Positions 34,428 to 50,986 of a DNA stretch of 64,000 nt are shown here, piece by piece. The stretch's first letter is position 1, and each line of letters opens with the position of its first letter. This DNA is from Bacteroidota bacterium (GTDB lineage: Bacteria; Bacteroidota; Bacteroidia; Bacteroidales; UBA10428). The notes under the pieces are model-generated. The model saw only the letters and a list, made by a program, of their open reading frames with translations, searched no databases and was not told the origin of the DNA. The DNA lies in the NCBI GenBank assembly GCA_003252385.1, contig QKEH01000137.1:6598-70597 (forward strand). Direction: 5' to 3'. The position numbers and the translations under genes were made by a program.

Positions 34428-37400
34428 TTACGAGAATACTTTCTGCTGATGGTGCAGGCGTATGGCATCCAATACCACCTCTACCGCTTGCCTGCCCTGT
34501 GCATAAACGGCATGGTGCCCGCCTTCCATCGAACAGAGGGTGAAGCCCCGCGAAGTGGCATGCTCCCAAAGCTGAACATCTGCAAGAGCTACCCGGTCAT
34601 CCTGGGTGGCATGAAGAGCTACTATGCCCGCATTCAATACGGTACAGTTGCGGTACGGATAGTGATACAACAGCTCAAAATCGGCACGCAGGGTTTCCAG
34701 CAATTGTTTTACCAGCTGCTCCTGTGCAGTTTGTGCTGCACTACCAATGAGGGACAGCAATTGTTCATCGGTAACCGGTGAAGCCATCAGGGTGTTGATA
34801 AAACGGTTTTCATAGCCATTCAGATACGGGGTGCCGGAAACGATAAGTGCATCGGCTTGCAGGTTATAGCGATTATTCAGTTGGCAGGCTGTCTCAAAAG
34901 CCAACACCCCACCCATACTGTGCCCAAAAATGCTAAACGGTTTGTTCAGGTGTTCTTTCAACTTGGGAACAATAAAATCCAGCAGTTGATCGTACCGTTT
35001 GATATGTTGTTCTTCCATGCGGCTGCCGTGCCCTGGAAGTTCAACCATTACCAGTTCGAAAGAAGAGGGTAGGAATACTTCCCAGTCCTTAAATAATTGA
35101 GTAGAGCCTCCGGCATCGTAGAACAGAACCAGTTGATACTCCACGCGGTTTGATTTTCGGGATTTAATCAGCCAGGGATCGTGATGGGTGGCTTCAGGTT
35201 CGGTATGTTTTTTAAAAAGCATCCGTTCGTCAATATAGCGTGCAAAGGAATTGGGCGAAGGAAACTTCGTGAAATCCTTCAGGGTAATACTGATCTGGAA
35301 TTCCTTTTCGATGCGGTTCCAAAGTTGGACCATAGAGAGCGAATCGATACCCAGACTCCTGAACGTGGTTTTGGAACTGATACTGTCGCTTGAAGCTTTG
35401 ATTAGTTTCGCAACGATTGCGATCAGGTAATCCTGTATCCACTTGATCCTTTCCTGACTGTCGGGCAGGTCGATTAGCTGCCTTATAGACGATTGGGTAT
35501 CCGCTGTTTTCTGTACCGGTTTTATCAGACCCGTATCTGCCACTGAAGCCATTACACCTTTAAGAGCCAGCACCAGGTCGCCATGCGCATTGTGTACCTG
35601 TAGTGTGCTGTTAAGACTGTAACGGGCACTTTCGCCCAGCTGCTTATGAGTAACGTGCAACGTAACCACATGGCGCTGGGTGAATGGCACCTCTTTGGGC
35701 AGGTAGATTTCCTGAATGCCCAGTACCGTAGTAAATATGAGATGTTCGGCAATAATTTTTCCTTTCATCGGAAGCAAAATGGAATGCAATGCATTGTCCA
35801 GCAATACCGGATTTAGGGAACCATTACCAGCTTCTTCAAACATATTTTCTGCCACATGAACTACCGCTTCGTAGTTTTCGCCCTGCCCCTGAATACCTAC
35901 CACATTCCTGAACGGGTGTCCATAATCCACCCCAAGGATATGTAAAAGTTGGTACAGGCTTTCACGATCGGTGTATTCAGCTGCAGGTTTGGCGCAAGTG
36001 GATTTGATCGGAGGGGCTGGCACATCCGCAATCTCACCGCTGCAGGTAAGCTGCCAGGCTTCTTCGTCGTGGGTGGCGCGGTAGAAGGCAAAAGCTGTGG
36101 GGGTTCCTTCGAAGGTGGTTACTTTTAGTTGTAGTTCGACCCGCACGTCTTTTTCCGGGTATACCGGTTGATGAAACTTCACTTTTCTCAATCCGCAAGG
36201 CTGATCAGGCAAATACCTGTTCAGCACATAGCTGACCATTTCGATATAAAAAGCCGCAGGAAACACCGAGCGGTCATTAACCCGATGTTCTTCTAAAAGC
36301 GGTTGCTGATTCACGCATAGGTGCACATTGAAATGCAGGTCGGTTAATCCGGCCAAGTTCACCTTCTCCCGGATAAAAGGGTGTTGCATACAGCCCTGAT
36401 CGGATTCGGAACGGGTTGCAAGCATGGATAAGTCTTTGAGTTGAAACTCTCCGCGTTCCATCGGATATGCCGGAAGTTCGATCTGATCGGGCCATTCAAG
36501 CTGGTAGTAGGTCTTCCAACCTATGTTGTGCCCCCGTTCAAAGACTTGTGCGAAGTTTTTCCAAAACTCTTCGTCTTCCGGGTCTTCGCGATTGAGTGAA
36601 CCAATAGACGACAGATTGGGGATTACTTGTTGTCCGGCACATTCGTAGATTGCATTTTTCAGCAATGGATGGGGGCTGAGTTCAATAAACAGGTTGGCTC
36701 CGTCGTGGAGCAGCGAATTTATCGCTTGTTCAAAATATACCGGATGGCGTAAGTTTTCCACCCAATATGCGGCGTCCATTTCAGTTCCCTGAAGCGGTTG
36801 ACGACGAACCGTGGAAACCAACGGATACCTGCCTTTTTGCGGGTGTATATTTTCCAGCTGTATCAAAAGGTCGTGGGTAATGGCGTCCATTTGTGCACTA
36901 TGCGAAGCCACATCCACCTGAACCTGGCGGCCGAACAAATCCTTACTTTCCAAATCGCTAAGCAGGCGATTAATCGCCTCCTGCGATCCGGAAACAACCG
37001 TGGATTTTGGGCTGTTATTGACTGAAATCTCCAATGATCCGGAGAAATTCGTCAGGAATTCCCGGGTTTGATCCAGTCCCAGGCCCACTACCGCCATGGT
37101 GCTTCCCTGTCCGCTAAGCGAACGCATCAGTTGGCTGCGCGAACAAATAATCCGGGCGGCATCGGGAAGGGTGAGCACTCCGGCAATATGAGCAGCTGCC
37201 ACTTCGCCCATGCTGTGTCCAACTACTGCATCGGGAACCACTCCAAGGGAAAGCCACAAGTGAGCCAGACTTACCTGAATGGCAAAAATATATGGCTGGA
37301 TCACATCGATACGTTGCAGCAACCCGGTATCTTCCGATGCCTGCATCAGGTTTGTCAACGACCAGTTGGTAAAGGGTTTCAGTGCTTCAGCACAACGTTG

Positions 37401-39095
37401 CATGGCTTCGAAAAAAACCGGCTGCGAAGTATACAAGCGGCACCCCATGCCATGCCATTGCGATCCTTGTCCGGAAAAAACAAATACCGTCCGATCGGGT
37501 ATTCGACCTTGAACAGGTTCGGTAATTTGGATGGATTGATGAAATTTCACCAGATGCTCACACAATTGTTCCCGGCTTGTGGCCACAACCAGTTTGCGGA
37601 ATTCCAACTGAGGTTTTCGAATGGCAAAGGCAGCACAAAAGTGGCGCAGTGCTTCGGGGTGGTTGTCCACTTTTTTCTCCACAAAGTCGGCTACCTTTTT
37701 GGCGTAACTCTTGAGTGCCGTATCGGAACTGGCCGACAATGGTAAAACAAAGTACTTTTGGGTGAAAGTAGGATTGGATTCTCTTGCGCGGCAAGGTTTG
37801 TATTCCTGAAGTACAATATGGGCATTGCTTCCGCCCCATCCGAAAGAGCTTACTCCGGCCAGTAAAGGCTTTTCGGCATTAGCAGGCCAGGCAGTGGTCT
37901 TGTTGGCTACCTCAAGATGCCACTCATCAAACCGAATTTTGGGATTGGGTGTTTCAAAATGGATGTTTGCCGGAATTTCGCGGTGCTGCATGGCCAAAAC
38001 TACCTTCAGTAAACCCGCAATCCCCGAGGCGGCTTCGGTATGTCCAATACTGGCTTTTACCGAGCCAATGAGCAATGGGGGTTTACGGATGCGGGAAGTG
38101 CCAAAGAAAGCACCCAGGGCTTCTGCTTCTAACGGATCGCCCAACCGGGTGCCCGTTCCGTGTGTTTCGATGTAATCAACATCGCATGGGTCGATTCCTG
38201 ACTGTTGATATGCTTTTTCGAGCAGGCGATATTGTCCTTTGGCGCTCGTAGCCGGCATGTGGGTATTGAATCCGTTGTTATTGAAGGCTCCGCCACGAAT
38301 TACTGCAAGTATGCGATCGCGATCGTTTTCGGCAGTTTCAAGCGGTTTTAAGAGAACCAGCCCTGCCCCTTCTGCACGAACAAAACCGTCGGCATTGGCA
38401 TCAAAACAACGGCATTGCCCGGCACTCGATAGCCCTCCGAATTTTGCCAGGTACACGTATTGTTCGGGGTTTAGGATATGGTTGACTCCTCCGGCGATGC
38501 CCATATCAATTTTCCCGTTTTGAAGCGATTCCACACACTGCATCACCGCTATAAGCGACGACGAACAACCGGTGTCGAGCACATAACTGGGGCCGGTTAA
38601 CCCGAAGAAGTATGATATACGGTTAGCAATCACATTGTTGGACTGTCCAATTCCTGAGAAATTATTGATTTCGGCATGTCTTTGGTTTCGGAAATGTTCG
38701 AAATCGGCCCAGATATTCCCCAGGTAAACCCCGGTGTTGGTACCTGCAAGGGCATCGAAGGGCATCGTACTGCTTTCGAAAAGTTCCCAGGCCAATTCCA
38801 TCATCAGTTTCTGCGAGGGGCTCATTTCATAAGCTTCCATGGGCGATATGGAAAATAGCTTAGGATCAAAATGGTGGATGGTTTCTAAAAAACCACCTAC
38901 ATTCTGGTTGGTTTTATTGGGTTTCTTTCCATCGGGATGATAGTATCTGCTCATATCCCATCGGTCGGATGGAACAGGCTCAATGGCAGACCGTCCTTCT
39001 TTCAACAGTTTCCAAAGTTCTTCGGGATGAGCTGCTTTTGGAAAACGACACGACATCCCGATTATAGCAATGGCTTTTTCGTTTCTGGCACGCAT
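34428..39095 (-). CDS. Type I polyketide synthase, single module KS-AT-DH-ACP-TE (no KR, ER or MT)
   Basis: 1555 aa. All catalytic motifs were read directly (see the domain sub-features). Confidence 0.95.
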   Translation of the reverse strand: MRARNEKAIAIIGMSCRFPKAAHPEELWKLLKEGRSAIEPVPSDRWDMSRYYHPDGKKPNKTNQNVGGFLETIHHFDPKLFSISPMEAYEMSPSQKLMMELAWELFESSTMPFDALAGTNTGVYLGNIWADFEHFRNQRHAEINNFSGIGQSNNVIANRISYFFGLTGPSYVLDTGCSSSLIAVMQCVESLQNGKIDMGIAGGVNHILNPEQYVYLAKFGGLSSAGQCRCFDANADGFVRAEGAGLVLLKPLETAENDRDRILAVIRGGAFNNNGFNTHMPATSAKGQYRLLEKAYQQSGIDPCDVDYIETHGTGTRLGDPLEAEALGAFFGTSRIRKPPLLIGSVKASIGHTEAASGIAGLLKVVLAMQHREIPANIHFETPNPKIRFDEWHLEVANKTTAWPANAEKPLLAGVSSFGWGGSNAHIVLQEYKPCRARESNPTFTQKYFVLPLSASSDTALKSYAKKVADFVEKKVDNHPEALRHFCAAFAIRKPQLEFRKLVVATSREQLCEHLVKFHQSIQITEPVQGRIPDRTVFVFSGQGSQWHGMGCRLYTSQPVFFEAMQRCAEALKPFTNWSLTNLMQASEDTGLLQRIDVIQPYIFAIQVSLAHLWLSLGVVPDAVVGHSMGEVAAAHIAGVLTLPDAARIICSRSQLMRSLSGQGSTMAVVGLGLDQTREFLTNFSGSLEISVNNSPKSTVVSGSQEAINRLLSDLESKDLFGRQVQVDVASHSAQMDAITHDLLIQLENIHPQKGRYPLVSTVRRQPLQGTEMDAAYWVENLRHPVYFEQAINSLLHDGANLFIELSPHPLLKNAIYECAGQQVIPNLSSIGSLNREDPEDEEFWKNFAQVFERGHNIGWKTYYQLEWPDQIELPAYPMERGEFQLKDLSMLATRSESDQGCMQHPFIREKVNLAGLTDLHFNVHLCVNQQPLLEEHRVNDRSVFPAAFYIEMVSYVLNRYLPDQPCGLRKVKFHQPVYPEKDVRVELQLKVTTFEGTPTAFAFYRATHDEEAWQLTCSGEIADVPAPPIKSTCAKPAAEYTDRESLYQLLHILGVDYGHPFRNVVGIQGQGENYEAVVHVAENMFEEAGNGSLNPVLLDNALHSILLPMKGKIIAEHLIFTTVLGIQEIYLPKEVPFTQRHVVTLHVTHKQLGESARYSLNSTLQVHNAHGDLVLALKGVMASVADTGLIKPVQKTADTQSSIRQLIDLPDSQERIKWIQDYLIAIVAKLIKASSDSISSKTTFRSLGIDSLSMVQLWNRIEKEFQISITLKDFTKFPSPNSFARYIDERMLFKKHTEPEATHHDPWLIKSRKSNRVEYQLVLFYDAGGSTQLFKDWEVFLPSSFELVMVELPGHGSRMEEQHIKRYDQLLDFIVPKLKEHLNKPFSIFGHSMGGVLAFETACQLNNRYNLQADALIVSGTPYLNGYENRFINTLMASPVTDEQLLSLIGSAAQTAQEQLVKQLLETLRADFELLYHYPYRNCTVLNAGIVALHATQDDRVALADVQLWEHATSRGFTLCSMEGGHHAVYAQGRQAVEVVLDAIRLHHQQKVFS
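34446..35144 (-). other. PKS C-terminal thioesterase domain (aa ~1318-1550)
   Basis: LVLFYDAGGS, GHS(1393)MGG nucleophile elbow, and late Asp/His residues (ATQDD..., EGGHH). Confidence 0.85.
35226..35483 (-). other. PKS acyl carrier protein domain (aa ~1205-1290)
   Basis: Phosphopantetheine site LGIDS(1252)LSMVQL. Confidence 0.88.
35541..36398 (-). other. PKS dehydratase-like double-hotdog domain (aa ~900-1185)
   Basis: H(937)xxxDxxxxP in LLEEHRVNDRSVFPAAFY, and D(1100)xxxH in LLDNALHS. Confidence 0.75.
36591..37490 (-). other. PKS acyltransferase domain (aa ~536-835)
   Basis: FSGQGSQWHGMG; GHS(628)MGE nucleophile; the specificity position reads VASH (aa 729-732). Confidence 0.9.
37806..39077 (-). 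other. PKS ketosynthase domain (aa ~7-430)
   Basis: IAIIGMSCRFP; active-site Cys177 in DTGCSSS (codon at 38565..38567); HGTGT at aa 312-316; GHTEAASG at aa 351-358; GSNAH. Confidence 0.93.
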
Positions 39096-39352: not shown

Positions 39353-39549
39353 AACACAATTCGAAAAAACTGTTGATTAGGATGGATCGCCACCATTCCC
39401 TGGGTGATATATGTCATATTTTCATCAGGTCGATGGAATTAATACGTAATTTCATAAATCTGTAGCGGGTCGAATGAAATATACCACAAACGAATAACAA
39501 AGAGGTAAGCATAATTCGTTAAATTTCAGCTAAATAAGGATTTTGGTTA

Positions 39550-40464
39550 ATGAAATGTACCATGGATACATGCGTAAACCTACAGAAAGAAGAAACTGTT
39601 AATTGGATTTCTGAACCGGAACTAAACGATGGTAATCAGCTGGAAAGGCTGGAGATTGAGCTTTTGTTGGAAGCCATTCATTCTCGCTATGGTTACGACT
39701 TTAGCAACTATTCTCCCAAATGTATCCGGCGTCGTATCCTTCACTTTCTCCGTCAGTCGCCTTACCCGGCAATTGCCGATTTGATCCACCCCATACTTAC
39801 CCAAGCCCCTTTTTTTCAGAAATTCATGCAACACCTGTCCATTACGGTGACCGAAATGTTCAGGGATCCCAACTTCTACCAGGAAATACGCAGCCGGGTA
39901 ATACCGGTATTGAGAACCTATCCGTACATTAAGATATGGCATGCCGGATGTGCAACCGGCGAAGAAGTGTATTCCATGGCTATTATCTTAAAAGAAGAAG
40001 GCTTGTTGGAACGAAGCCAGCTCTATGCCACAGATTTTAATCACCATGCTCTCATACTGGCGAGCGATGGCCGTTATACCAGCGAAACCGTCCATCAGTA
40101 TCAGGCGAACTACAGCCTTTCTGGCGGAAAAGGCCTGCTTACAGACTACTTTACCTGCAGTAAGCGCCACCTGCAAATCAGTAAAGAATTGAAATCCAAC
40201 ATTTTTTTCACCAGTCACAACCTGGTAACCGACAGCCTTTTTGGCGAAATGAATGTAATCTTCTGCCGGAATGTACTGATCTATTTTAATTCGGATTTGC
40301 AAAACCGGGTACTGAATATGATGAGCGAGAGCCTGGTATATAATGGTTTTTTATGCCTGGGTGCCAAGGAATCCCTCTGCTCCTATCCACACGCTCATTT
40401 TTACCATACTACCTCCGGGAAAATCGGGATTTTTCAAAAAAAACACGCGATTCCTCCATTCTAA
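39550..40464 (+). CDS. CheR-type protein-glutamate O-methyltransferase (stand-alone)
   Basis: N-terminal CheR helical domain (LEIELLLEAIHSRYGYDFSNYSPKCIRRRI). SAM-binding IWHAGCATGEEVYSMAIIL, DFNHHAL and IFCRNVLIYF. Confidence 0.85.
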   Translation: MKCTMDTCVNLQKEETVNWISEPELNDGNQLERLEIELLLEAIHSRYGYDFSNYSPKCIRRRILHFLRQSPYPAIADLIHPILTQAPFFQKFMQHLSITVTEMFRDPNFYQEIRSRVIPVLRTYPYIKIWHAGCATGEEVYSMAIILKEEGLLERSQLYATDFNHHALILASDGRYTSETVHQYQANYSLSGGKGLLTDYFTCSKRHLQISKELKSNIFFTSHNLVTDSLFGEMNVIFCRNVLIYFNSDLQNRVLNMMSESLVYNGFLCLGAKESLCSYPHAHFYHTTSGKIGIFQKKHAIPPF

Positions 40465-40509
40465 AGAAGCCGATAACCGCAACACAAGACTACTACCTAC
40501 ACCAACCAT

Positions 40510-43500
40510 ATGAAATTCAAGCAAAATAAAGCCGTCTATGGGACTGTTATCACCCTGGTAATCCTTGCGGCAGGCAGTTTGGCACTCAACAACCTGGGAT
40601 GCCGGCCATTAGGCTACCATCCAACTGTACATTCGGCAGTGGAGGCCATTGGGTCTCTGGTGGCCCTGTTAACCTGGTTTTTTCTTTATCGGAGTGCGAA
40701 CCCCGATGATAAAGTACTTCAGTGGCTGGCACAGGGATTTCTTGCCATGGGAATTCTGGATGGATTTCATGCACTTCTTGTTCCTGGAAATCATTTTGTT
40801 CTTATACACTGCCTGTCCGACTTGTTCGGAGGCACCTTGTTTGCCATGTCCTGGAGCACTTTGTTTTGGACATCATTCCGAACCCGTCTGGCGGCTTTTC
40901 TTACCGCCTGCACGGCTTTACTGGTGGGGCTGACATCCATTTTTTGGCCACATGGCATGCCGGTTTTCTGGTCCAATGGACACTATACCTCCCTGGCCGT
41001 TGCCATGAACCGGCTGGCGGCTATACTGTTTTTTCTGGCCGGCCTTTATTTTGTGCGCCTGTTGCTTTCCGGCAAACGCAACCCAGGTGTTTTGTTAAGT
41101 GTGGTATTGGCTGTGCTGCTAGGAGTTTCGAGCATTCTGTTAGAATTTTCCAATCTTTGGAATTCCTTCTGGTGGACCCTTCATGCCGTGCGTCTTTCAG
41201 CCTATATTTTTACCCTATGGTATTTGTTACGCGGCGTAGGCCAAATGCAAACCGAACTCAGCAAAAGCAATCAAATGCTGGCCAGGCAACAAGCCGAAAT
41301 TGAACAGGTAAATGCCGAACTCCGACGACAAACCGACAGTTTGAAGCAATCCGAAGAAAAACTCATTGCCCAGCAGCAGAAAATGGTAACCTTTAATACC
41401 GAACTGGAAGAGAAAACCTTGTTTCTGGAAGAACAAAAACAAGAGATTCTTGAAAAGAACCGGGAAAGTGAGCTGAATAACTGGCTCAAAACCGGGCAAA
41501 CCGAATTGGAAAAGCACATGAGGGGAAATAAGCAACCCGAAGTGCTGTGCCGCAACATTCTCACTTTTGTTTGCAACTACCTGCAAGCCGAAGTTGGCAC
41601 CATGTACCTGCTATCAAGTCCGGATACCCTGCAATTTACTGCCGGCTATGCCTTCGACTCCAACCGCCCCCATTTTTCTGAATTTAAAATAGGCGAAGGC
41701 TTTCCGGGGCAGGTCGCTCAGGATGGCCGGCGTATGCTGCTCAAAACTTTCCCCAACAATTACATGCAAATGAAATCGTCGCTGGGGACTAAAAATCCAG
41801 AGCTTATTGTGATCAGTCCGCTGATTTTTGAGGGACAAACCCTGGGTGTTTACGAATTGGGATGCTCGCATGACCTGGAAAACATTCACTATGATTTCCT
41901 GGACAGTATTCACGATAGTGTGGCGATCAGCATACAATCCCTTTTATCCCGGATTCGCCTGGACGAAGCCTTGTCGAGAGCACAGCTACAGGCCGAAGAA
42001 TTGCAGGTTCAGCAGGAAGAGTTGGAAAAAGCCAACGAAGAACTGCGACAACAAACCGATATTCTGATTCAATCGGAAAGAAAGCTGATGATACAGCAGG
42101 AAGAATTGCAGGCGAGCAATGAGGAACTGGCCCAGAAAACCTTGTATTTGGAAGAACAGAAAAAGGAAATCGACCGCAAAAACCACACTCTCGAAGAAGC
42201 CAGAAATACCCTGTCCGTTAAAGCCAGAGAACTGGAAGTTACCAGTCAGTACAAATCCGATTTTTTGGCAAACATGTCGCACGAACTTCGCACCCCCCTG
42301 AACAGTTTACTGATACTTGCACAGCAGTTGCACCGAAATAAGGAGCAGAATCTGATGCCCGATCAGGTAAAAGCAGCCGAAGTGATATATTCCAGTGGTT
42401 CCGATTTATTGCACCTCATTAACGATATTCTGGATCTGTCCAAAATTGAATCGGGTAAGATGATTCTCCAATGGGAAGATGTCAGCCTGAGCCAACTGGT
42501 AGAATCGTTACAGAATCGATGTCTGCCATTGATTCAGGAAAAAGGCCTCGAATTCACCCTAAAAATAGATACGACCCTGCCGCACACTATCCGAACCGAC
42601 CGAACCCGCACGGAACAGGTGCTGATGAATCTGCTGTCGAATGCCATGAAATTCACCGAAACAGGAACTGTTGGTCTTCACTTTTATCCCGCGGAACCTG
42701 ACCGGAATCAAAATCAACAGGACAACCATCCGGGCATGCTGGCCATGGAAATAAGCGATACAGGAATGGGAATACCCGAGGATAAACAGCAGATTATTTT
42801 TGAGGCATTTCAGCAGGTCGATAGCAGCATATCCCGGAAATTTGGTGGCACAGGCCTGGGTCTGTCCATTTCGCGCGAGCTTGCCAACCTGTTGGGAGGA
42901 AAGTTGCAGCTAAGAAGTACCCTGGGCAAAGGATCCGTTTTCACCCTGTTGGTTCCAATGATTCCTAATCCATCACGGAATGAAAGCCAAATCGAATCCG
43001 GAGAGGGACGCAGGAAACCGGATCTCTCCTCCCTGCTGTCGGATGGCATGCAACCAGCCCCGGCAGTTTCCGATGACCGGTTATCCCTGCACAATGGTGA
43101 CTGTATTGTAATGGTGATTGATCACGATTCGCACAGCACGGCTTATATTCACGACCAATGCCGAAAAAACGAGCTGAAATTCTTGCACGCCCTGAATGGA
43201 AACGAAGGTATAGAACTCGTCTATAAGTACCCTGTAGAAGCCATTTTACTGGCGTTGGATTTGCAGGATATGCCTGGCGAAGAGGTGTTACTTGCACTTA
43301 AGAGCGAATCCTGCACCCGACACATACCGGTGGTAACCCTGTTAGGAGCAAACTGTTCCATTCCGGCATTGTGCAAAGGAGCCTTAGCTATTGTGCAAAA
43401 GCCATTAAATCCCAAACGATTTGATACCGTGTTTAACACCCTTCTCGGTTTCATAGCGAAAAAGACAAAATCGCTACTCATTGTAGAAGATAATCAGCTC

Positions 43501-44271
43501 ATCCGGGAAAAACTCACGGAATTGCTGGCAGCCGATGATCTGACCATCACCCTTCTTGACACAGGAATGCAGGCAGTAAAAGCCATTCAGGATACCTCCT
43601 ACGATTGTATGATCCTGGATTTAATGCTACCCGATATCTCCGGCATAGAATTGCTCCAAAAGCTACAGGCAGATGCTGCGAAACCCCTTCCCCCCATCAT
43701 TGTATACACGGCCAAGGATTTGACCCGACAGGAAGCCGAGCAGCTTCAAAAGTATGCCCGTTCCATCATAATAAAAGGCCCCAACTCCAATGAACGGATC
43801 TTCGAAGAAACCTCGCTTTTTCTGCACCGGCCTTCAACCAGTCTGACCCCAAAAGGGCAGCAGATGCTTCAAAAAATCTACGACCACGAAACCATTTTTA
43901 AAGGTAAATCTGTGCTCCTGGTCGATGACGATATGCGCAATGTATTTGCCATATCGCAAGTACTCGAAGAAAAGGGAATGGACATTCACATAGCATCCAA
44001 TGGAAAGCTGGCACTGGAAAAGCTGCAAAGCGGAAAAGCTATTGATATGGTACTCATGGATATCATGATGCCGGTTATGGACGGATACGAAGCCATCCGT
44101 CGCATACGCTCCCAGGAATGCTTTTGGAAACTGCCCATAGTGGCTCTAACTGCAAAGGCCATGAAGGATGACCGCGAGAAATGCATGGCGGCAGGTGCCA
44201 ACGACTACCTATCCAAACCCATCCATATCGAACGTTTATTAGCCCTTATGCGAATATGGTTTTTTAATTAA
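40510..44271 (+). CDS. Hybrid sensor histidine kinase: polytopic membrane domain / coiled coil / GAF / coiled coil / HisKA-HATPase / 3 receiver domains
   Basis: About 7 hydrophobic helices (aa 1-240). A GAF-like region (aa ~340-485). H-box FLANMSH(591)ELRTPLNS, and the N/G boxes (LMNLLSNAMKFT, DTGMGIP, GGTGLGLSI). Receivers have acceptor Asp at ~917, 1036 and 1184. Confidence 0.9.
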   Translation: MKFKQNKAVYGTVITLVILAAGSLALNNLGCRPLGYHPTVHSAVEAIGSLVALLTWFFLYRSANPDDKVLQWLAQGFLAMGILDGFHALLVPGNHFVLIHCLSDLFGGTLFAMSWSTLFWTSFRTRLAAFLTACTALLVGLTSIFWPHGMPVFWSNGHYTSLAVAMNRLAAILFFLAGLYFVRLLLSGKRNPGVLLSVVLAVLLGVSSILLEFSNLWNSFWWTLHAVRLSAYIFTLWYLLRGVGQMQTELSKSNQMLARQQAEIEQVNAELRRQTDSLKQSEEKLIAQQQKMVTFNTELEEKTLFLEEQKQEILEKNRESELNNWLKTGQTELEKHMRGNKQPEVLCRNILTFVCNYLQAEVGTMYLLSSPDTLQFTAGYAFDSNRPHFSEFKIGEGFPGQVAQDGRRMLLKTFPNNYMQMKSSLGTKNPELIVISPLIFEGQTLGVYELGCSHDLENIHYDFLDSIHDSVAISIQSLLSRIRLDEALSRAQLQAEELQVQQEELEKANEELRQQTDILIQSERKLMIQQEELQASNEELAQKTLYLEEQKKEIDRKNHTLEEARNTLSVKARELEVTSQYKSDFLANMSHELRTPLNSLLILAQQLHRNKEQNLMPDQVKAAEVIYSSGSDLLHLINDILDLSKIESGKMILQWEDVSLSQLVESLQNRCLPLIQEKGLEFTLKIDTTLPHTIRTDRTRTEQVLMNLLSNAMKFTETGTVGLHFYPAEPDRNQNQQDNHPGMLAMEISDTGMGIPEDKQQIIFEAFQQVDSSISRKFGGTGLGLSISRELANLLGGKLQLRSTLGKGSVFTLLVPMIPNPSRNESQIESGEGRRKPDLSSLLSDGMQPAPAVSDDRLSLHNGDCIVMVIDHDSHSTAYIHDQCRKNELKFLHALNGNEGIELVYKYPVEAILLALDLQDMPGEEVLLALKSESCTRHIPVVTLLGANCSIPALCKGALAIVQKPLNPKRFDTVFNTLLGFIAKKTKSLLIVEDNQLIREKLTELLAADDLTITLLDTGMQAVKAIQDTSYDCMILDLMLPDISGIELLQKLQADAAKPLPPIIVYTAKDLTRQEAEQLQKYARSIIIKGPNSNERIFEETSLFLHRPSTSLTPKGQQMLQKIYDHETIFKGKSVLLVDDDMRNVFAISQVLEEKGMDIHIASNGKLALEKLQSGKAIDMVLMDIMMPVMDGYEAIRRIRSQECFWKLPIVALTAKAMKDDREKCMAAGANDYLSKPIHIERLLALMRIWFFN

Positions 44272-44290
44272 ACTTTTAATTACGAGGATT

Positions 44291-46876
44291 ATGTGCGGAG
44301 GAAAACCTATTATTTTATTGGTTGACGACAAGTCGGAAAATTTGTTTGCCCTGGAACAGTTACTTGGCGAGCTGGAGGTGGATACCCTGGCCGCATTATC
44401 GGGCAACGAAGCCATAACCAAAACGTTGGAATACGAATTTGCTCTGGCACTTATTGATGTTCAAATGCCCGACATGGATGGATTTGAAACGCTGGAGTTG
44501 CTTCGAAAAAACAGGGCTACAAAAAACCTGCCCGTAATTTTTATTACCGCAACCTACCAACCCGATTATTCAAAAGTGAAGGGCATTGAACGCGGGGCGG
44601 TCGATTTTTTAACCAAACCCATCGTGCCGGAATTGTTATTGGGTAAAATAAGGGTGCTTCTTAGTCTCTATGAACAACAAAAACAACTCTCCAATACCAT
44701 TAAGGAACGTGATATTGCTTTGCAACATCTCGAAGAGTACAAAGAACATCTGGAAGAACTGGTAGAAACCCGAACCAATGAGCTGGCCAATGTCAATGCC
44801 GGACTGGAAGAAGAAATTTCCATACGAAAAGATACGGAAACCCGGTTACGAGCCAGTGAGGAACGGTACCGTTTGCTTACGGAAAACGCCATTGATTGCA
44901 TTTGGACAATGGATGTAAGGATGCGTTTTACCTATGTAAGCCAGGCCATGGAACTGGTAACTGATTTTACACCGGAGGAGTGCATGGGTAAACCACTTTC
45001 CGCCTTTTGCGACTGGATTCACTTTGCCAAAGTCGCCCGGCTGGCGCTCGGCACCCTGCACAATCCGTTGGAATATCCCTACCTGAGGATTGAAACCCAG
45101 CTTCGATCCAAAAACGGCCAGTCCATCCCTATTGAAATAGCAGGTAAAGCCTTATTAGACAGCCAGGGTAAAGTGATTGGTTTACAGGGTTCCATGAAAG
45201 ATATTACCGAACGTGTCCAGTCGCATCGCGCGTTGCTGGAAAGCGAAAATCGCTTTCGAACCCTGTTCGACAGTTCCCCCGACATGTATGTGTCGTTTGC
45301 ACCAAAAGATGGACGCATTCTGCTCAGCAACCGCACCATGATGGCGCATCTGGGATATGCGGTCGAGGAACTGCGCGGTCGGGAGATCTTTGAGTTTTAT
45401 GCCGACAACGAACAGGATTTATTTAAACTCTTGCAAGAGGAAGGACGCTTAATCGATAAAGAGCTTAAACTGAAAAGAAAGGACAATACTTACATTGATG
45501 TGAACCTCAATGCAGAGGCCATCTACAACACCAACCATCAGCTGGTCTATTACATTGCTACCTGCAGAGACATTAGCCAGCGAATACGAACTGAACAGAA
45601 GCTAACCGACCAGAAGAAGAAGATTTTTGAGCAAATGAAGAATTTCAGCGAGCTCAACAAGGAATATCAGGCACTGAACAAAAACCTCATTAACTCCAAC
45701 CTTAAACTGAAAGAAACCAATATCCAATTGGAAATAGCAAAGAAGAAAGCAGAGGAGAGCGACCGGCTGAAATCGGCATTCTTAGCCAATATGTCGCACG
45801 AGATCCGTACTCCGATGAATGCGATTATTGGCTTTTCCAACCTTTTGAAAGATAATACACTCACAAGTAAAAAAACCGAGCACTATGTCGAACTAATCAA
45901 TAACTCCGGTCAGTATTTACTCAAGCTGATCAACGACATTATTGACCTCTCCAAATTGGAAGCCAGGCAATTAAAAATAAGCTATTGCACGTGTCGACTT
46001 TACGAAATTTTCCGTAATTCCTATGAGCTTTTCCTTCATCATGAGGTGTATAAGTCGAACGAAAAGGTGGATCTCTTGCTCGATGTGGATGAAGCCCAGT
46101 GTACCTGGAACATTGTGACCGATCAGATTCGCTTTGAACAGGTACTTAATAACCTTATTAACAATGCACTAAAATTCACTAAGGAAGGGCACGTACGGAT
46201 AGGCTATCGAGTCACCAAAGATGAAAGTCGCAGCTTTCTGGAGGTGTATGTGGATGATACCGGAATTGGTATACCGGACGAGATGAAGAACGTTATTTTT
46301 GAACGCTTCCGGCAGGTAAAAGAGCTGGACTATCACGAAGGCGCAGGTTTGGGACTGTGCATCTCAAAAGGTATTGTTGAACTCATGGGAGGTACTATCT
46401 GGTATGAAAGCGAGCCGGGTAAAGGATCTACCTTCTTTTTCACCATTCCCCTAAAAATAAACCTCTATTCCGAACCCGTGAAAACGCGCAACACCAACGG
46501 ACAGCTTAATCTGGCCAACAAAACCATTTTTATTGCTGAAGATGACAAGAATTCGTACGAATACCTGGAAGATTTACTCCAGGAAACCCAGGTAACCATT
46601 AAACATGCGCATAATGGCGAAGAACTCATGGAACTGTTGGAAGAGTCGATTCCCGACTTAATTCTGCTGGATATGAATATGCCGAGAAAAAATGGATACG
46701 ATTGCCTGAAAGAAATTAAACAAAAGCAAATTCCGGTTAAGATTATTGCACAGACCGCCTATGCCATGGCCAACGATAAAGAAAAATACCTCAACGAAGG
46801 CTGCCATGCTTATATTGCCAAGCCCTACGAGAGAAATGAAATGATACAAAAAATTGAAGAAGTATTGCAGGAATGA
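44291..46876 (+). CDS. Hybrid sensor histidine kinase: REC / coiled coil / 2 PAS / HisKA-HATPase / REC
   Basis: N-terminal receiver (ILLVDDKSEN, LIDVQMPDMDG, FLTKP). PAS-like repeats (EERYRLLTENAIDCIW..., ENRFRTLFDSSPDMYV...). H-box FLANMSHEIRTPMNAI; DDTGIGIP; GAGLGLCIS. C-terminal receiver (IFIAEDD, LLDMNMPRKNG, AYIAKP). Confidence 0.9.
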   Translation: MCGGKPIILLVDDKSENLFALEQLLGELEVDTLAALSGNEAITKTLEYEFALALIDVQMPDMDGFETLELLRKNRATKNLPVIFITATYQPDYSKVKGIERGAVDFLTKPIVPELLLGKIRVLLSLYEQQKQLSNTIKERDIALQHLEEYKEHLEELVETRTNELANVNAGLEEEISIRKDTETRLRASEERYRLLTENAIDCIWTMDVRMRFTYVSQAMELVTDFTPEECMGKPLSAFCDWIHFAKVARLALGTLHNPLEYPYLRIETQLRSKNGQSIPIEIAGKALLDSQGKVIGLQGSMKDITERVQSHRALLESENRFRTLFDSSPDMYVSFAPKDGRILLSNRTMMAHLGYAVEELRGREIFEFYADNEQDLFKLLQEEGRLIDKELKLKRKDNTYIDVNLNAEAIYNTNHQLVYYIATCRDISQRIRTEQKLTDQKKKIFEQMKNFSELNKEYQALNKNLINSNLKLKETNIQLEIAKKKAEESDRLKSAFLANMSHEIRTPMNAIIGFSNLLKDNTLTSKKTEHYVELINNSGQYLLKLINDIIDLSKLEARQLKISYCTCRLYEIFRNSYELFLHHEVYKSNEKVDLLLDVDEAQCTWNIVTDQIRFEQVLNNLINNALKFTKEGHVRIGYRVTKDESRSFLEVYVDDTGIGIPDEMKNVIFERFRQVKELDYHEGAGLGLCISKGIVELMGGTIWYESEPGKGSTFFFTIPLKINLYSEPVKTRNTNGQLNLANKTIFIAEDDKNSYEYLEDLLQETQVTIKHAHNGEELMELLEESIPDLILLDMNMPRKNGYDCLKEIKQKQIPVKIIAQTAYAMANDKEKYLNEGCHAYIAKPYERNEMIQKIEEVLQE

Positions 46877-48217: not shown

Positions 48218-50986
48218 ATGAGAACGATTTGTTTTAGCGCATTCCTACTGTTTTTAGCTCTGATCGGCAATGCCCAATCTGCTGATATCGTTGAGAAACG
48301 TAACATTTATACCAAAAAAGGCGATTTCTACACGGAAAAGGGTGATTACGACAAAGCCATTCTGTTCTATAACATGGCGTATGAAAATGATAAAACCGAT
48401 TACCTGTCGATTCTAAAAAAAGCAGATGCCTACAGCAAACTGGCACTCTACCCGCAAGCGGTGAACAGTTATCGCTTCGTGTTTGAGCAGCCGGTTCGCC
48501 CTGCTAATTCGTATCGTTTAAAATATGCACTGGCTCTGCAGGCTAATGGGCAATACTCCGAATTCAAAAAAGTGATTAAGGAATACTCCGATTTGGTGGA
48601 GCTTGAAATTGGCAGCGGAAACACACTGGTTTCTGCCGAAAACCGTACAAAACTTTATAAAGATACCGCGGTAAGTTTTGTGGCCAACGGGCAAAGCGAA
48701 ACCGTAGCCTTCAAGGTAAAATATGCCGGGTATAAAATGCGCCGCCAGGAACACCCCGAAGACAAATACCTGAACCTGATTCTCAGCAACGGAACCGAGC
48801 ATAGCGTAGCACCATCCGATGGCGATAATTTTGAGTTTAACTTCCAGCCCCAGGAAGCCTACACCCTGCTGATACGAAAAGAAAATATTGAGGCTGCCAA
48901 CCTGTTGAATAAACCCGGATTTCAAACCCCTGCCCCGCTGCAGGAAACTGCTATTGAACTGGAACCGGGCATGAAATACGTGTTTACCACCGGATCGAAA
49001 AAAATAAGTGCCGATTACCGCTCGCGCCTGCAGTCTATGGCAGGAAGCTACCAATCGCCCGGTTCCGATGCCGTGGATCTGACTGCCCTGGTGAAGGAAC
49101 TCCACATGGCGGGCGACGAGGTATACAGCATCCGTTTTGAAAAAGGAACTGCTTCCGGTTATAAAAAGCCTGAAATTTCGAGCTTAACCATCAATGACGA
49201 AGCCATTAACATTTTTGGCAATTCGTTCTTTATTGTACTTCCGCTGGAAACCGGTGTCAACTTCAACGTACAAACCGACCTGGACGCTTTGGAGAAAAAC
49301 TTCAGCCCGAAAAAGTTTGCCATGCATATCGATGATGCACCGGTATTTACCGGATCACCCGATCAGGGCTATATGGTGGCACTTACCATCAACACCACTA
49401 CGGTGGATGGTATTAAAACCGAAAATACCTTTATGGGCCGCGAAATTGGCATGATACCCGGTACCGAATACATTCTTACACTAAGCAAACCCGATCCGTC
49501 GGGAGGTAACGATATCGAAGTGTTTGTTCCCTTAACCCAGGGGGTGAAATACAATTTTACTTCTCTGAGTGACAAACAGGAAGAATACCGCAAGGAACTG
49601 GCTGAGTTCCTTTTGGATCGGAAGGATGTAAAACTGGCCGACGAGGAAATCATTAATATTTCGATGCTCTCCAAGGCTCTGGAGGTGGAACCGGGCGAAA
49701 AACTGTCGTTTAACCTTAAACCTGCCAAAAAAATGGGCTCCCAGCCAGGCACAGCGTCCGCAGCAAGCTCGATACTCATGATCGATGACAAGGAATTTAA
49801 AATTAACAGTACCGAAAAATTCCGGGTAAACATTCCTTTTGATCTGGAAAATAAACTCAATATCCAGACCGATCTGGGTTATGTGCAGGAACATTTTGCC
49901 AGCAATGCCTATACCGTGCGGGTGGATACCTCATCCTTCGTCTCCGAAATCAGTATTGATGTGAAAGAGCTGGATAAGTACAAGGACAGCGAATGGCTAA
50001 GCATGAGCGTAAATACCGAGTCGGTGGCAGAGGTTAGCAAACAGGATCAGTTTATTGCCAAGGATGTAAGCATACTGCCCGGCAAGGAGTACATCCTCAC
50101 CATCAGCAAAACCGATGGTAAAACCGGTAAAATCGATGATATCATCATTCCGTTGATCCGCGATGTGAAGTACGATTTTACAGCCCGCGAGGGCTCGGCC
50201 GAAGAATTTGACGCGGCGCTGGATGCCTTCCTGTCCGGACAGAAGAAAGCGACCACTCCCGAAGGAACCATGATCGACATTAAACTGCTTTCGAAGGAAC
50301 TGGAGATCGAGAAAGGCGATGCGGTATCCTTCAGTCTGTTACCGGTTAAAAACATCTACAAAAAGCCCGAAAATGTCGAAAACGCAGCCTCCAGCCTTTT
50401 CCTCGATGATAAAGTGGTAGAGTTTACTCATATTAACAAATATTCCATTAACATGCCGCTACACCAGGGACAGATGAATGTACAAACCAACCTGGACTAC
50501 ATCCAGCAAAATTACCAACCCGGCACGGTACATTTTGAAGTGGACACCCTCTCCTTCTTCTCCGAAATAACTGTAGATACCACAGGGCTCGGCAATCGGG
50601 TAGTGAAAGAAAAAATTACCGATCCGGTATTCGATGTGGTCATTGTAAATTTTGAAGTCAACCAACACGTGCTTACCCCAAAAGCCAAACAAATCATTCA
50701 GGACAAAGTATTCAACGAGATGAGTAAGGACAACCGATTGTATGTTACCATTACCGGCTATACCGATGCACTGGGCGATGCCGATTACAACATGAAATTG
50801 TCGCAAAAAAGAGCCGAATCGGTTCAAGCCTATCTGAAAGCCAATGGCGTGGGCGACAACCGGATCCGGACTTTCTCCTTCGGCGCGGCTTCCAAGCTCG
50901 AAGCAGGAGTAAACTGGAAGGATTTAAGCGAGGCTGAACTGGCCAAGTACCGCAAGGTGGAAATTGTGATCTATTTACCGAAATAA
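48218..50986 (+). CDS. Large OmpA-family protein: signal peptide / TPR / three ~200-aa tandem repeats / OmpA peptidoglycan-binding domain
   Basis: Signal peptide (LLFLALIGNAQS) and a TPR-like region (GDYDKAILFYNMAYEND...). The C-terminal OmpA_C domain has ITGYTDALGDADYNMKLSQKRAESVQAYL. Confidence 0.8.
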   Translation: MRTICFSAFLLFLALIGNAQSADIVEKRNIYTKKGDFYTEKGDYDKAILFYNMAYENDKTDYLSILKKADAYSKLALYPQAVNSYRFVFEQPVRPANSYRLKYALALQANGQYSEFKKVIKEYSDLVELEIGSGNTLVSAENRTKLYKDTAVSFVANGQSETVAFKVKYAGYKMRRQEHPEDKYLNLILSNGTEHSVAPSDGDNFEFNFQPQEAYTLLIRKENIEAANLLNKPGFQTPAPLQETAIELEPGMKYVFTTGSKKISADYRSRLQSMAGSYQSPGSDAVDLTALVKELHMAGDEVYSIRFEKGTASGYKKPEISSLTINDEAINIFGNSFFIVLPLETGVNFNVQTDLDALEKNFSPKKFAMHIDDAPVFTGSPDQGYMVALTINTTTVDGIKTENTFMGREIGMIPGTEYILTLSKPDPSGGNDIEVFVPLTQGVKYNFTSLSDKQEEYRKELAEFLLDRKDVKLADEEIINISMLSKALEVEPGEKLSFNLKPAKKMGSQPGTASAASSILMIDDKEFKINSTEKFRVNIPFDLENKLNIQTDLGYVQEHFASNAYTVRVDTSSFVSEISIDVKELDKYKDSEWLSMSVNTESVAEVSKQDQFIAKDVSILPGKEYILTISKTDGKTGKIDDIIIPLIRDVKYDFTAREGSAEEFDAALDAFLSGQKKATTPEGTMIDIKLLSKELEIEKGDAVSFSLLPVKNIYKKPENVENAASSLFLDDKVVEFTHINKYSINMPLHQGQMNVQTNLDYIQQNYQPGTVHFEVDTLSFFSEITVDTTGLGNRVVKEKITDPVFDVVIVNFEVNQHVLTPKAKQIIQDKVFNEMSKDNRLYVTITGYTDALGDADYNMKLSQKRAESVQAYLKANGVGDNRIRTFSFGAASKLEAGVNWKDLSEAELAKYRKVEIVIYLPK
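48770..50587 (+). repeat. Three tandem ~200-aa protein repeats inside the OmpA-family gene
   Basis: Repeats R2 (aa ~385-585) and R3 (aa ~592-790) align clearly: PGTEYILTLSKPD/PGKEYILTISKTD; VKYNFT/VKYDFT; LSKALEVEPGEKLSFNL/LSKELEIEKGDAVSFSL; NIQTDLGYVQEHF/NVQTNLDYIQQNY; SEISIDV/SEITVDT. R1 (aa ~185-380) is more diverged (NFNVQTDLDALEKNF). Confidence 0.7.

What the first reader, a model, noticed from the sequence alone, without database searches (positions are those of the whole stretch)
41272..42234. Duplicated EEL-rich coiled coil flanking the GAF domain, with a Glu-Glu-x-x-Ala-Ser chemoreceptor methylation-site match
**Seen in the sequence.** Two ~65-85-aa heptad segments of the first hybrid kinase are clear paralogs:
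- aa ~255-325: NAELRRQTDSLKQSEEKLIAQQQKMVTFNTELEEKTLFLEEQKQEILEKNRE
- aa ~490-575: NEELRQQTDILIQSERKLMIQQEELQASNEELAQKTLYLEEQKKEIDRKNHT

They bracket the GAF-like domain (nt ~41527..41964). The second segment runs straight into the HisKA H-box. It contains EELQAS (aa 531-536, nt 42100..42117), as well as EELEKA and NEELAQ.

**Established knowledge.** MCP methylation sites fit Glu-Glu-x-x-Ala-Ser/Thr on a coiled-coil face. Repeated xEELxxxNEEL segments are also seen fused to CheR/CheB modules in multidomain sensor proteins.

**Inference.** These helices are the likely CheR substrate. Sitting between the ligand-binding GAF and the DHp helix, their methylation could tune signal transmission.
Basis: partly seen in the sequence, partly recalled or inferred. 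Interest (0 to 1): 0.62.

Follow-up and report, generated by a model that had tools for sequence, protein, structure and literature searches.

The report
Methyl-accepting-type sensor kinase with duplicated coil
The two similar helical segments are real, but only the second belongs to an already described class of sensor kinases that chemotaxis-type enzymes are thought to methylate, so this is an ordinary new member with a few local quirks.

Summary
HK1 (40510-44271) has two paralogous heptad coils around a GAF domain: 57% identity over 60 ungapped residues, z = 8.7 against heptad-preserving shuffles.

The two coils are not equivalent. Coil 2 (aa ~488-585) is the hallmark of a large family of GAF-coil-HisKA hybrid kinases. 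It aligns without gaps to the H-box. Leu sits at position d and Asn/Gln/Thr at position a. Glu-Glu pairs at the exposed b/c positions are 70-95% conserved.

In 87 loci including the window, 61 have CheR and/or CheB next to the kinase; 48 have both. This matches the "methyl-accepting coiled-coil" class MAC2 and the experimentally shown RsbK/RsbM pair of Bacillus cereus.

Coil 1 is rare and possibly lineage-specific. It replaces the usual HAMP linker and has lost all four Glu-Glu pairs, so it is probably only a connector.

The single EELQAS match is not beyond chance by itself.

No cheB lies in the 64 kb, although the two closest relatives have CheR-CheB-kinase.

Verdict: new member of a known kind; methylation itself is untested.

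The parts
39550..40464 (+). CheR-type protein-glutamate O-methyltransferase gene (304 aa), 45 nt upstream of HK1
   Evidence: Pfam CheR_N (E 3.6e-08) and CheR SAM-binding domain (E 6.2e-41, profile 2-183 of 195). It is 38-46% identical to the CheRs encoded next to family kinases. It aligns over its full length to the CheR of the closest locus L008.
40510..44271 (+). HK1: hybrid histidine kinase. Order: MASE3-like membrane domain, coil 1, GAF, coil 2, HisKA, HATPase, three receiver domains
   Evidence: ORF. Pfam domains. The core is 40-49% identical to family members that carry other N-terminal sensors.
40618..41211 (+). MASE3-like multi-pass membrane sensor region (aa 37-234)
   Evidence: Weak Pfam MASE3 match below the curated cut-off (E 0.0016). 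N-terminal relatives P0121 and P0122 carry precomputed MASE3 hits.
41233..41520 (+). Coil 1 (aa 242-337): pre-GAF helix. Its core, aa 257-320 (nt 41278-41469), is a degenerate paralog of coil 2 that has lost the EE pairs
   Evidence: AF2 predicts a single helix at aa 242-337. The coil-2 HMM hits aa 257-320 at 29 bits. Shuffle test. The four EE pairs are replaced by AE, AE, QK and TE.
41536..41937 (+). GAF domain (aa 343-476)
   Evidence: Pfam GAF_2, E 1.9e-08. Foldseek top hits are GAF-domain crystal structures.
41971..42264 (+). Coil 2 (aa 488-585): conserved Glu-rich signalling helix, 13 unbroken heptads, in register with the H-box. This is the candidate methyl-accepting segment
   Evidence: Alignment to the H-box is ungapped or differs by whole heptads. 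Column conservation. AF2 predicts a continuous helix at aa 458-609.
41995..42042 (+). Three consecutive EE pairs at heptad b/c positions: E496/E497, E503/E504, E510/E511
   Evidence: Glu frequency is 77-87% in 60 CheR/CheB-linked relatives.
42100..42126 (+). EE pairs E531/E532 (QEELQAS) and E538/E539 (NEEL). E532 is the most conserved exposed Glu in the helix
   Evidence: E531 85%, E532 95%, N537 100%, E538 70%, E539 82%. E532 lies 59 residues before the phospho-acceptor His.
42280..42282 (+). Codon of the phospho-acceptor His591 (H-box HELRTP)
   Evidence: Sequence. Invariant in the family. Lies within Pfam HisKA, aa 582-649.
42598..42960 (+). HATPase_c catalytic domain (aa 697-817)
   Evidence: Pfam, E 1.1e-23.
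43123..44247 (+). Three receiver domains. Pfam reports 3 stretches; the best is aa 1135-1246
   Evidence: Pfam Response_reg, E 8.3e-57, 3 stretches. The boundaries of the first two were read from the sequence and are approximate.
44291..46876 (+). HK2: REC-PAS-PAS-HisKA-HATPase-REC, 19 nt downstream of HK1. It is the counterpart of the REC-output gene that ends the canonical operon
   Evidence: Pfam. REC-HK or REC-GGDEF genes follow CheB in related loci.

Best explanation
HK1 belongs to the widespread family of hybrid sensor kinases built as sensor, GAF, long Glu-rich coiled coil, DHp. This corresponds to the "methyl-accepting coiled-coil" class MAC2 and to RsbK-type kinases.

Shown here:
- Coil 2 is one continuous helix from the GAF domain to the phospho-acceptor His.
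- It keeps strict heptad register. Leu is at d and Asn/Gln/Thr at a.
- The conserved Glu-Glu pairs fall at the solvent-exposed b/c positions.

Inferred:
- The CheR encoded 45 nt upstream uses S-adenosylmethionine to esterify one or more of these Glu residues.
- E532 is the best candidate, followed by E497, E504, E511 and E539.
- Neutralising charge on this marginally stable helix changes how the GAF signal reaches the DHp, and so sets the kinase output that passes to HK1's own receivers and to HK2.

Coil 1 is a rare, possibly lineage-specific copy of the first ~60 residues of coil 2. It replaces the usual HAMP or PAS linker between the membrane domain and GAF. It keeps the a/d core but has lost every EE pair, so it most likely acts as a rigid connector and not as a methyl acceptor.

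No cheB is present in the window. Methylation here would therefore be a set-point or brake, as proposed for RsbK/RsbM, unless an esterase is encoded elsewhere in the genome.
For: - Domain architecture.
- Coil 2 register: alignment to the H-box is ungapped or shifted by whole heptads, with EEL at 7-residue spacing in about 100 relatives.
- Conservation in 60 CheR/CheB-linked relatives: d-Leu 87-97%, N537 100%, N509 93%, E503/504 87/82%, E510/511 82/83%, E531/532 85/95%, E538/539 70/82%.
- Gene neighbourhood of 87 loci including the window: 45 kinase-CheR-CheB, 3 CheR-CheB-kinase, 10 with CheR only, 3 with CheB only.
- The window CheR is full length and 38-46% identical to those CheRs.
- The AF2 model (mean pLDDT 85) shows a helix at aa 242-337, then GAF, then one helix at aa 458-609.
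- Precedent: RsbM methylates the S-helix of RsbK (CHASE3-HAMP-GAF-S-helix-HK-REC) and has no cognate esterase (PMC4574943).
- The MAC1/MAC2 classes are described in PMC6943060 and bioRxiv 10.1101/2022.05.07.491037.
- Coil 1: the HMM finds a pre-GAF copy only in the window, weakly in P0007, and in 1 of the top 149 library representatives. The EE pairs are lost.
Against: - No methylation data exist for this protein or for any close relative.
- The MAC class is reported as experimentally uncharacterised (bioRxiv 10.1101/2022.05.07.491037).
- 25 of the 87 loci have no CheR or CheB within about 5 kb. Eight of these are Bacteroidales-type or similar loci that keep EE-rich coils.
- The c-position Glu (E532, E539) is equally conserved in relatives without CheR or CheB. 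It may therefore have a structural role.
- The classical small-residue context EExx[AST][ST] is only partly conserved in this family.
- Heptad exposure is inferred from conservation and a monomer model, not from a dimer structure.
- The absence of cheB may mean the system is decaying.
Confidence: 0.6

Rival explanations
1. One reading: both paralogous coils are CheR substrates, so methylation acts on both sides of the GAF domain.
For: - Coil 1 keeps the a/d core and a Glu at the c position in three of the four former EE sites (AE, AE, TE).
- It also has EE pairs in other registers: SEEKL, LEEK, LEEQ.
- In chemoreceptors the second residue of the pair is the one modified (my own knowledge, not tested here).
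Against: - All four b-position Glu residues of the copied EE pairs are replaced, and one c-position Glu has become Lys.
- Coil 1 is missing from nearly all CheR/CheB-linked relatives, so it cannot be the family's conserved acceptor.
- No [EQ][EQ] pair remains at b/c in the stretch copied from coil 2.
Confidence: 0.12
2. The Glu-rich heptads are purely structural. They form a dynamic signalling helix whose acidic surface serves helix stability or docking of the receiver domains. CheR acts on another target, such as a receiver domain or HK2.
For: - The c-position Glu and the NEEL motif are just as conserved in relatives that lack neighbouring CheR or CheB, including a Paenibacillus/Cohnella clade.
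- A Lys at g, four residues after the c-position Glu, could form intrahelical salt bridges (sequence).
- CheR has been reported to methylate a response regulator, PhoP, in Salmonella (PMC8546571).
- In RsbK the S-helix contributes to binding of the receiver domain (PMC4574943).
Against: - Two enzymes specific for glutamyl esters are tightly linked to this kinase family: 61 of 87 loci, usually with overlapping or abutting genes.
- The same EEL/NEEL coil is fused to CheB-CheR in MAC1-type proteins.
- RsbK is directly reported to be methylated on the equivalent helix (PMC4574943).
- The total Glu count in the coil is higher in CheR+CheB-linked loci (mean 15.7) than in unlinked loci (10.2), although the unlinked set is dominated by one clade.
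Confidence: 0.18
3. The module is decaying. After cheB was lost, cheR and the acceptor sites are relics, and HK1 now signals without covalent modification.
For: - There is no CheB in 64 kb, while the two closest relatives have CheR-CheB-kinase.
- The window has lost the e/f Glu pairs that follow NEEL in most relatives: R513/Q514 and A541/Q542.
Against: - cheR is an intact full-length ORF with a strong Pfam match, and it aligns end to end with orthologs.
- All five b/c EE pairs of coil 2 are intact.
- CheR-only loci recur independently in the family: L009, L037, L044, L045, L050, L057, L078, L089.
- RsbK/RsbM works without an esterase (PMC4574943).
Confidence: 0.08

Closest known systems
RsbK / RsbM of Bacillus cereus: a hybrid sensor kinase methylated on its signalling helix by a CheR-like methyltransferase (Chen et al. 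2012; PMC4574943)
   Same: - A hybrid kinase with a GAF domain followed by a coiled signalling helix that leads into HisKA.
- An adjacent CheR-type methyltransferase with no paired esterase.
- The proposed role is setting kinase output.
- RsbK His505 is given in PMC4574943. The methylated residues Glu439 and Glu446 are from my memory of the 2012 paper and could not be verified here. With those numbers they lie 66 and 59 residues before the His. In this family those are c positions of consecutive heptads, corresponding to window K525 and E532.
- Short-coil Firmicute relatives P0045 and P0050 have EEL heptads at exactly those offsets.
   Different: - RsbK has CHASE3-HAMP in front and a single receiver. 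HK1 has a MASE3-like membrane domain, a duplicated coil instead of HAMP, and three receivers.
- RsbK's partner is RsbY (REC-PP2C) in the sigB cluster. Here the partner is a REC-PAS-PAS kinase, and no sigma-factor genes are nearby.
MAC2 class of "methyl-accepting coiled-coil" proteins (Wuichet & Zhulin 2010, as described in MiST3, PMC6943060, and bioRxiv 10.1101/2022.05.07.491037)
   Same: - One protein combines a receptor-like coiled coil with a histidine kinase.
- Separate CheR and CheB genes are associated with it.
- HK1's core is 40-49% identical to kinases in kinase-CheR-CheB-REC-output operons.
   Different: - cheB is missing from the window.
- cheR lies upstream rather than downstream of the kinase.
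- An extra degenerate coil precedes the GAF domain.
- The MiST3 MAC2 profile is not available here, so formal class assignment was not tested.
MAC1-type fused CheB-CheR-(PAS)-coil-kinase proteins
   Same: They carry the same heptad motif, xEELxx[ST]NEEL repeated at 7-residue spacing. Examples seen here are the fused protein in L022, P0074 and P0089.
   Different: In MAC1 the enzymes are fused to the acceptor, and the small-residue context EELQST is much clearer. Here CheR is a separate protein and the context is mostly EELxV[TS].
Methyl-accepting chemotaxis proteins (adaptation region)
   Same: Glu-Glu pairs at 7-residue spacing on an acidic coiled coil, modified by CheR and CheB. One site (EELQAS) fits Glu-Glu-x-x-Ala-Ser.
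   Different: - There is no MCPsignal domain and no antiparallel hairpin bundle.
- No CheA or CheW is indicated in the locus.
- The coil is a parallel-type helix feeding a DHp directly.
- The consensus context is weakly conserved.

Membership tests
MAC2 (methyl-accepting coiled-coil kinases) | A single protein carries a receptor-like coiled coil and a HisKA/HATPase kinase | tested here: met
   Pfam HisKA, HATPase_c and GAF. Continuous heptad coil from GAF to the H-box.
MAC2 (methyl-accepting coiled-coil kinases) | A separate CheR gene is associated with the kinase | tested here: met
   The CheR ORF 39550-40464 ends 45 nt before HK1. It is orthologous to the CheRs of related loci.
MAC2 (methyl-accepting coiled-coil kinases) | A separate CheB methylesterase gene is associated with the kinase | tested here: not met
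   No tblastn or HMM hit to CheB anywhere in the 64-kb window. The rest of the genome is unknown. 51 of the 86 related loci have CheB.
MAC2 (methyl-accepting coiled-coil kinases) | Match to the MiST3 MAC2 profile HMM | not testable with these tools
   The profile is not in Pfam, NCBIfam or the other libraries offered. As a surrogate, homology (40-49% identity) to kinases in kinase-CheR-CheB operons was shown.
RsbK/RsbM-type methylated sensor kinase | Hybrid kinase with GAF, then a signalling helix, then HisKA-HATPase-REC | tested here: met
   The N-terminal sensor (MASE3-like versus CHASE3-HAMP) and the number of receivers (3 versus 1) differ.
RsbK/RsbM-type methylated sensor kinase | An adjacent orphan CheR-like methyltransferase with no cognate esterase | tested here: met
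   CheR is present and CheB is absent in the window. This is inconclusive for the whole genome.
RsbK/RsbM-type methylated sensor kinase | Glutamyl methylation of the signalling helix by the methyltransferase | not testable with these tools
   Needs mass spectrometry or radiolabelled S-adenosylmethionine assays. Only positional conservation of Glu was shown.
RsbK/RsbM-type methylated sensor kinase | Output through RsbY (REC-PP2C) and the sigB partner-switching cluster | tested here: not met
   The downstream gene is REC-PAS-PAS-HisKA-HATPase-REC. The ten flanking ORFs scanned with Pfam show no PP2C or sigma-factor genes.
Methyl-accepting chemotaxis protein | MCPsignal domain (antiparallel four-helix hairpin that binds CheA/CheW) | tested here: not met
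   The Pfam scan of HK1 lists no MCPsignal match at E <= 0.01.
Methyl-accepting chemotaxis protein | Methylation consensus [EQ][EQ]xx[ASTG][ASTG] conserved at the sites | tested here: inconclusive
   One exact match in the window (EELQAS), which is not above chance. At that site relatives have V32/A25/Q23 then T35/S30/I13/A13.

The most novel reading that the evidence does not exclude
The pre-GAF coil may be a deliberately unmethylatable twin of the methyl-accepting coil. It keeps the same a/d core and length but has lost the first Glu of every pair. It could act as a fixed reference or as a CheR docking or decoy helix. With no esterase present, methylation of coil 2 would then shift the balance between two otherwise matched helices on either side of the GAF domain. 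That would be a built-in comparator not described for MAC or RsbK-type kinases.
Probability: 0.08. Interest if true: 0.55.

Novelty: new member of a known kind. Interest (0 to 1): 0.3.

Why it matters
Kinases of this class join two textbook bacterial signalling designs: the covalent adaptation of chemoreceptors and the two-component histidine kinase. Apart from RsbK/RsbM they remain almost untested experimentally.

This locus adds nothing new in principle. It does offer a compact CheR-only, three-gene module. It also contains a natural internal control: a paralogous coil that lacks the Glu-Glu pairs. That control could be useful for mapping which residues CheR needs.

Tried and rejected
- Significance of the EExxAS match. 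It is not above chance, so it was dropped as evidence.
- Search for cheB in the window by tblastn and by HMM on all ORFs. Nothing was found. The CheR C-terminal tail is not a CheB remnant.
- Search for orthologs that carry coil 1. A word-indexed search with aa 1-345 gave only a 98%-identical N-terminal fragment and two distant proteins. The full HMMER search of 1.84 billion representatives gave no hit above 48% identity, and only 1 of the top 149 had a coil-2-like segment upstream of its GAF.
- Verifying the RsbK methylation sites (Glu439, Glu446). Chen et al. 2012 is not held, and text searches found nothing. These residues stay marked as recalled. The RsbK sequence could not be obtained, so its helix was not aligned.
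- Wuichet & Zhulin 2010 could not be read.
- NCBIfam gave only generic sub-threshold hybrid-kinase matches.
- The promoter and terminator scan found no more sites than shuffled sequence.
- Comparison of CheR-only with CheR+CheB loci for site-specific Glu loss. The sample was too small and phylogenetically confounded.
- No RNA runs hold the sequence, so co-transcription could not be tested.
- Model coordinates are not exposed, so the relative geometry of coil 1 and coil 2 could not be measured.
Full report
**Observation**

The finding lies inside a 1253-aa ORF, HK1 (40510-44271, + strand). Pfam gives the following:
- a weak MASE3-like membrane region, aa 37-234
- GAF_2, aa 343-476
- HisKA, aa 582-649
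- HATPase_c, aa 697-817
- three receiver stretches

A CheR gene (39550-40464; CheR_N plus the CheR SAM-binding domain) ends 45 nt upstream. A second hybrid kinase, HK2 (44291-46876; REC-PAS-PAS-HisKA-HATPase-REC), starts 19 nt downstream.

The two coils are true paralogs:
- BLASTP gives 53% identity over 76 aa, E = 2e-17.
- The Smith-Waterman score is 166. Shuffles that keep each heptad phase intact give 82 +/- 9.6 (z = 8.7).
- Over 60 ungapped residues, identity is 57% at protein level and 63% at DNA level. The duplication is therefore old, not an assembly artefact.

**What coil 2 is**

A database search found a family with a conserved GAF-coil-HisKA-HATPase-REC x3 core, 40-46% identical to HK1. 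Family members carry interchangeable N-terminal sensors: dCache, CHASE3, 4HB_MCP, NIT, HAMP, PAS, MASE3.

A scan of species-representative genomes found more than 575 relatives across Bacteroidota, Desulfobacterota, Gammaproteobacteria, Paenibacillus and others. An exhaustive HMMER search found 1667 representative clusters at E <= 1e-30.

When anchored on the H-box, the ~95 residues upstream align without gaps or with whole-heptad indels. EEL recurs at 7-residue spacing and at fixed distances from the His.

Column statistics in 60 relatives linked to CheR or CheB define the register:
- position d is Leu (87-97%)
- position a is polar (N537 100%, N509 93%, otherwise Gln, Thr or Lys)
- the Glu-Glu pairs occupy b and c

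Their conservation rivals that of the core: 496/497 at 77/77%, 503/504 at 87/82%, 510/511 at 82/83%, 531/532 at 85/95%, 538/539 at 70/82%. This is unusual for exposed coiled-coil positions.

An AF2 model built with a 43-sequence alignment (mean pLDDT 85) predicts one helix at aa 242-337, a GAF fold, then one uninterrupted helix at aa 458-609 running through His591. Foldseek confirms the GAF fold.

The register is inferred from conservation and a monomer model.

**Link to CheR and CheB**

I called ORFs in 86 related loci and the window, then searched them with small CheR, CheB and coil-2 HMMs:

| Arrangement | Loci |
|---|---|
| kinase-CheR-CheB | 45 |
| CheR-CheB-kinase | 3 |
| kinase followed by a fused CheB-CheR-coil protein | 1 |
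| kinase-CheR only (two cut by contig ends) | 9 |
| CheB only | 3 |
| neither within about 5 kb | 25 |
| CheR-kinase (the window) | 1 |

Called genes with Pfam labels confirm the canonical operon: kinase, CheR, a stand-alone ~195-aa CheB methylesterase, then a REC-output protein.

Fused CheB-CheR proteins carry the same EELxxxNEEL coil.

**Comparison with what is known**

[quoted passage not shown] A 2022 preprint defines MAC1 as incorporating CheB/CheR domains and MAC2 as associated with them. It notes they had not been characterised experimentally (bioRxiv 10.1101/2022.05.07.491037).

Independently, B. cereus RsbK (CHASE3-HAMP-GAF-S-helix-HK-REC) is methylated on its signalling helix by the CheR-like RsbM. 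RsbM has no cognate esterase. RsbK-like kinases were reported in 10 phyla (PMC4574943).

RsbK's phospho-acceptor is His505 (PMC4574943). From my memory of Chen et al. 2012, which I could not verify here, the methylated residues are Glu439 and Glu446. That places them 66 and 59 residues before the His. In this family those offsets are c positions of consecutive heptads. In the window they are K525 and E532, and E532 is the most conserved exposed Glu.

The short-coil Firmicute relatives P0045 and P0050 have EEL heptads at exactly those offsets. The P0045 locus reads kinase, CheR, REC-PAS-kinase with no CheB, which is the same logic as the window.

**What coil 1 is**

The coil-2 HMM finds a second copy upstream of GAF in very few proteins:
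- the window (aa 257-320, 29 bits)
- weakly, the only other MASE3-type full-length relative, P0007
- 1 of the top 149 library representatives

Other double hits are tandem heptad extensions of coil 2.

Coil 1 is about as similar to coil 2 of the closest relatives (L008 scores 182, P0001 scores 164) as to its own coil 2 (164). The copy therefore dates to roughly the divergence of this subclade.

Coil 1 keeps every a and d residue. However, the four EE pairs in the copied stretch are now AE, AE, QK and TE. It follows the last membrane helix directly and occupies the place of HAMP or PAS in relatives. I read it as a rigid connector, not a conserved methyl acceptor.

**Local peculiarities**

No CheB is detectable anywhere in the 64 kb. 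The two closest relatives, L008 (49% identity) and L006/P0001 (46%), both have CheR-CheB-kinase. L008 also has a 45-nt gap before its kinase, the same as the window. The window CheR aligns end to end with L008's, and its tail is not a CheB remnant. cheB therefore appears to have been lost cleanly.

CheR-only loci recur in the family (L009, L037, L044, L045, L050, L057, L078, L089).

The window also lacks the e/f Glu pairs that follow NEEL in most relatives (R513/Q514 and A541/Q542).

**Weighing the evidence**

In favour of coil 2 as the CheR substrate:
- family-wide gene linkage
- conservation of exposed Glu-Glu pairs
- the MAC1 fusions
- the RsbK precedent

Against, or limiting:
- no methylation data exist for this protein
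- 25 loci have no CheR or CheB nearby, and several of them keep EE-rich coils
- the c-position Glu is equally conserved without CheR or CheB
- the classical small-residue context is weak
- the lone EELQAS match is not above chance

I put about 0.6 on the full mechanism and about 0.85 on family membership in the broad sense.

**Verdict**

The locus is a new member of a known kind, with a rare duplicated linker coil and loss of cheB.

Noticed in passing
window 34428-39095 (-): A single-module type I polyketide synthase (KS-AT-DH-ACP-TE, 1555 aa) is transcribed divergently from the CheR-HK1-HK2 operon.
   Followed up: partly
window 40465-40509; L008 4843-4887; L006 100-709: The two closest relatives have CheR-CheB-kinase, and L008 has a 45-nt gap before its kinase. 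The window has the same 45-nt gap but no cheB and no CheB remnant.
   Followed up: yes
window 42046-42051 and 42130-42135 (aa 513/514 and 541/542): The e/f Glu pairs that follow NEEL in most relatives (E65/E58 and E75/E87) are R,Q and A,Q in the window. Three of the eight CheR-only loci have lost the second pair. The sample is too small to interpret.
   Followed up: partly
window 44251-44268 (HK1 C-terminus ...RIWFFN): A Trp 4-5 residues from the C-terminus is nearly invariant across the family (alignment A1). It is reminiscent of the xWxxF pentapeptide that tethers CheR to chemoreceptors, but it does not match that pentapeptide.
   Followed up: no
L022 5206-8826 and 9762-12722: In a Desulfuromonadaceae MAG, a MAC2-type kinase is followed by a fused CheB-CheR-coil (MAC1-type) protein. 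Both classes sit in one locus.
   Followed up: partly
L089 6001-11523: A Firmicute-like contig carries 4HB_MCP-HAMP-GAF-kinase-REC, then CheR, then REC-PAS-kinase, without CheB. This is an independent CheR-only module like the window's.
   Followed up: partly
window 39400-44400: All sampled 31-mers of this stretch are held in two metagenome runs, one labelled hydrothermal vent metagenome. No RNA runs were found. A 237-aa ENA protein fragment (P0121) is identical over the first 212 residues of HK1 and then diverges, probably because of a contig-end artefact.
   Followed up: partly
window 48218-50986 (+): A 922-aa protein with a C-terminal OmpA domain shows obvious long internal repeats in its translation.
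   Followed up: no
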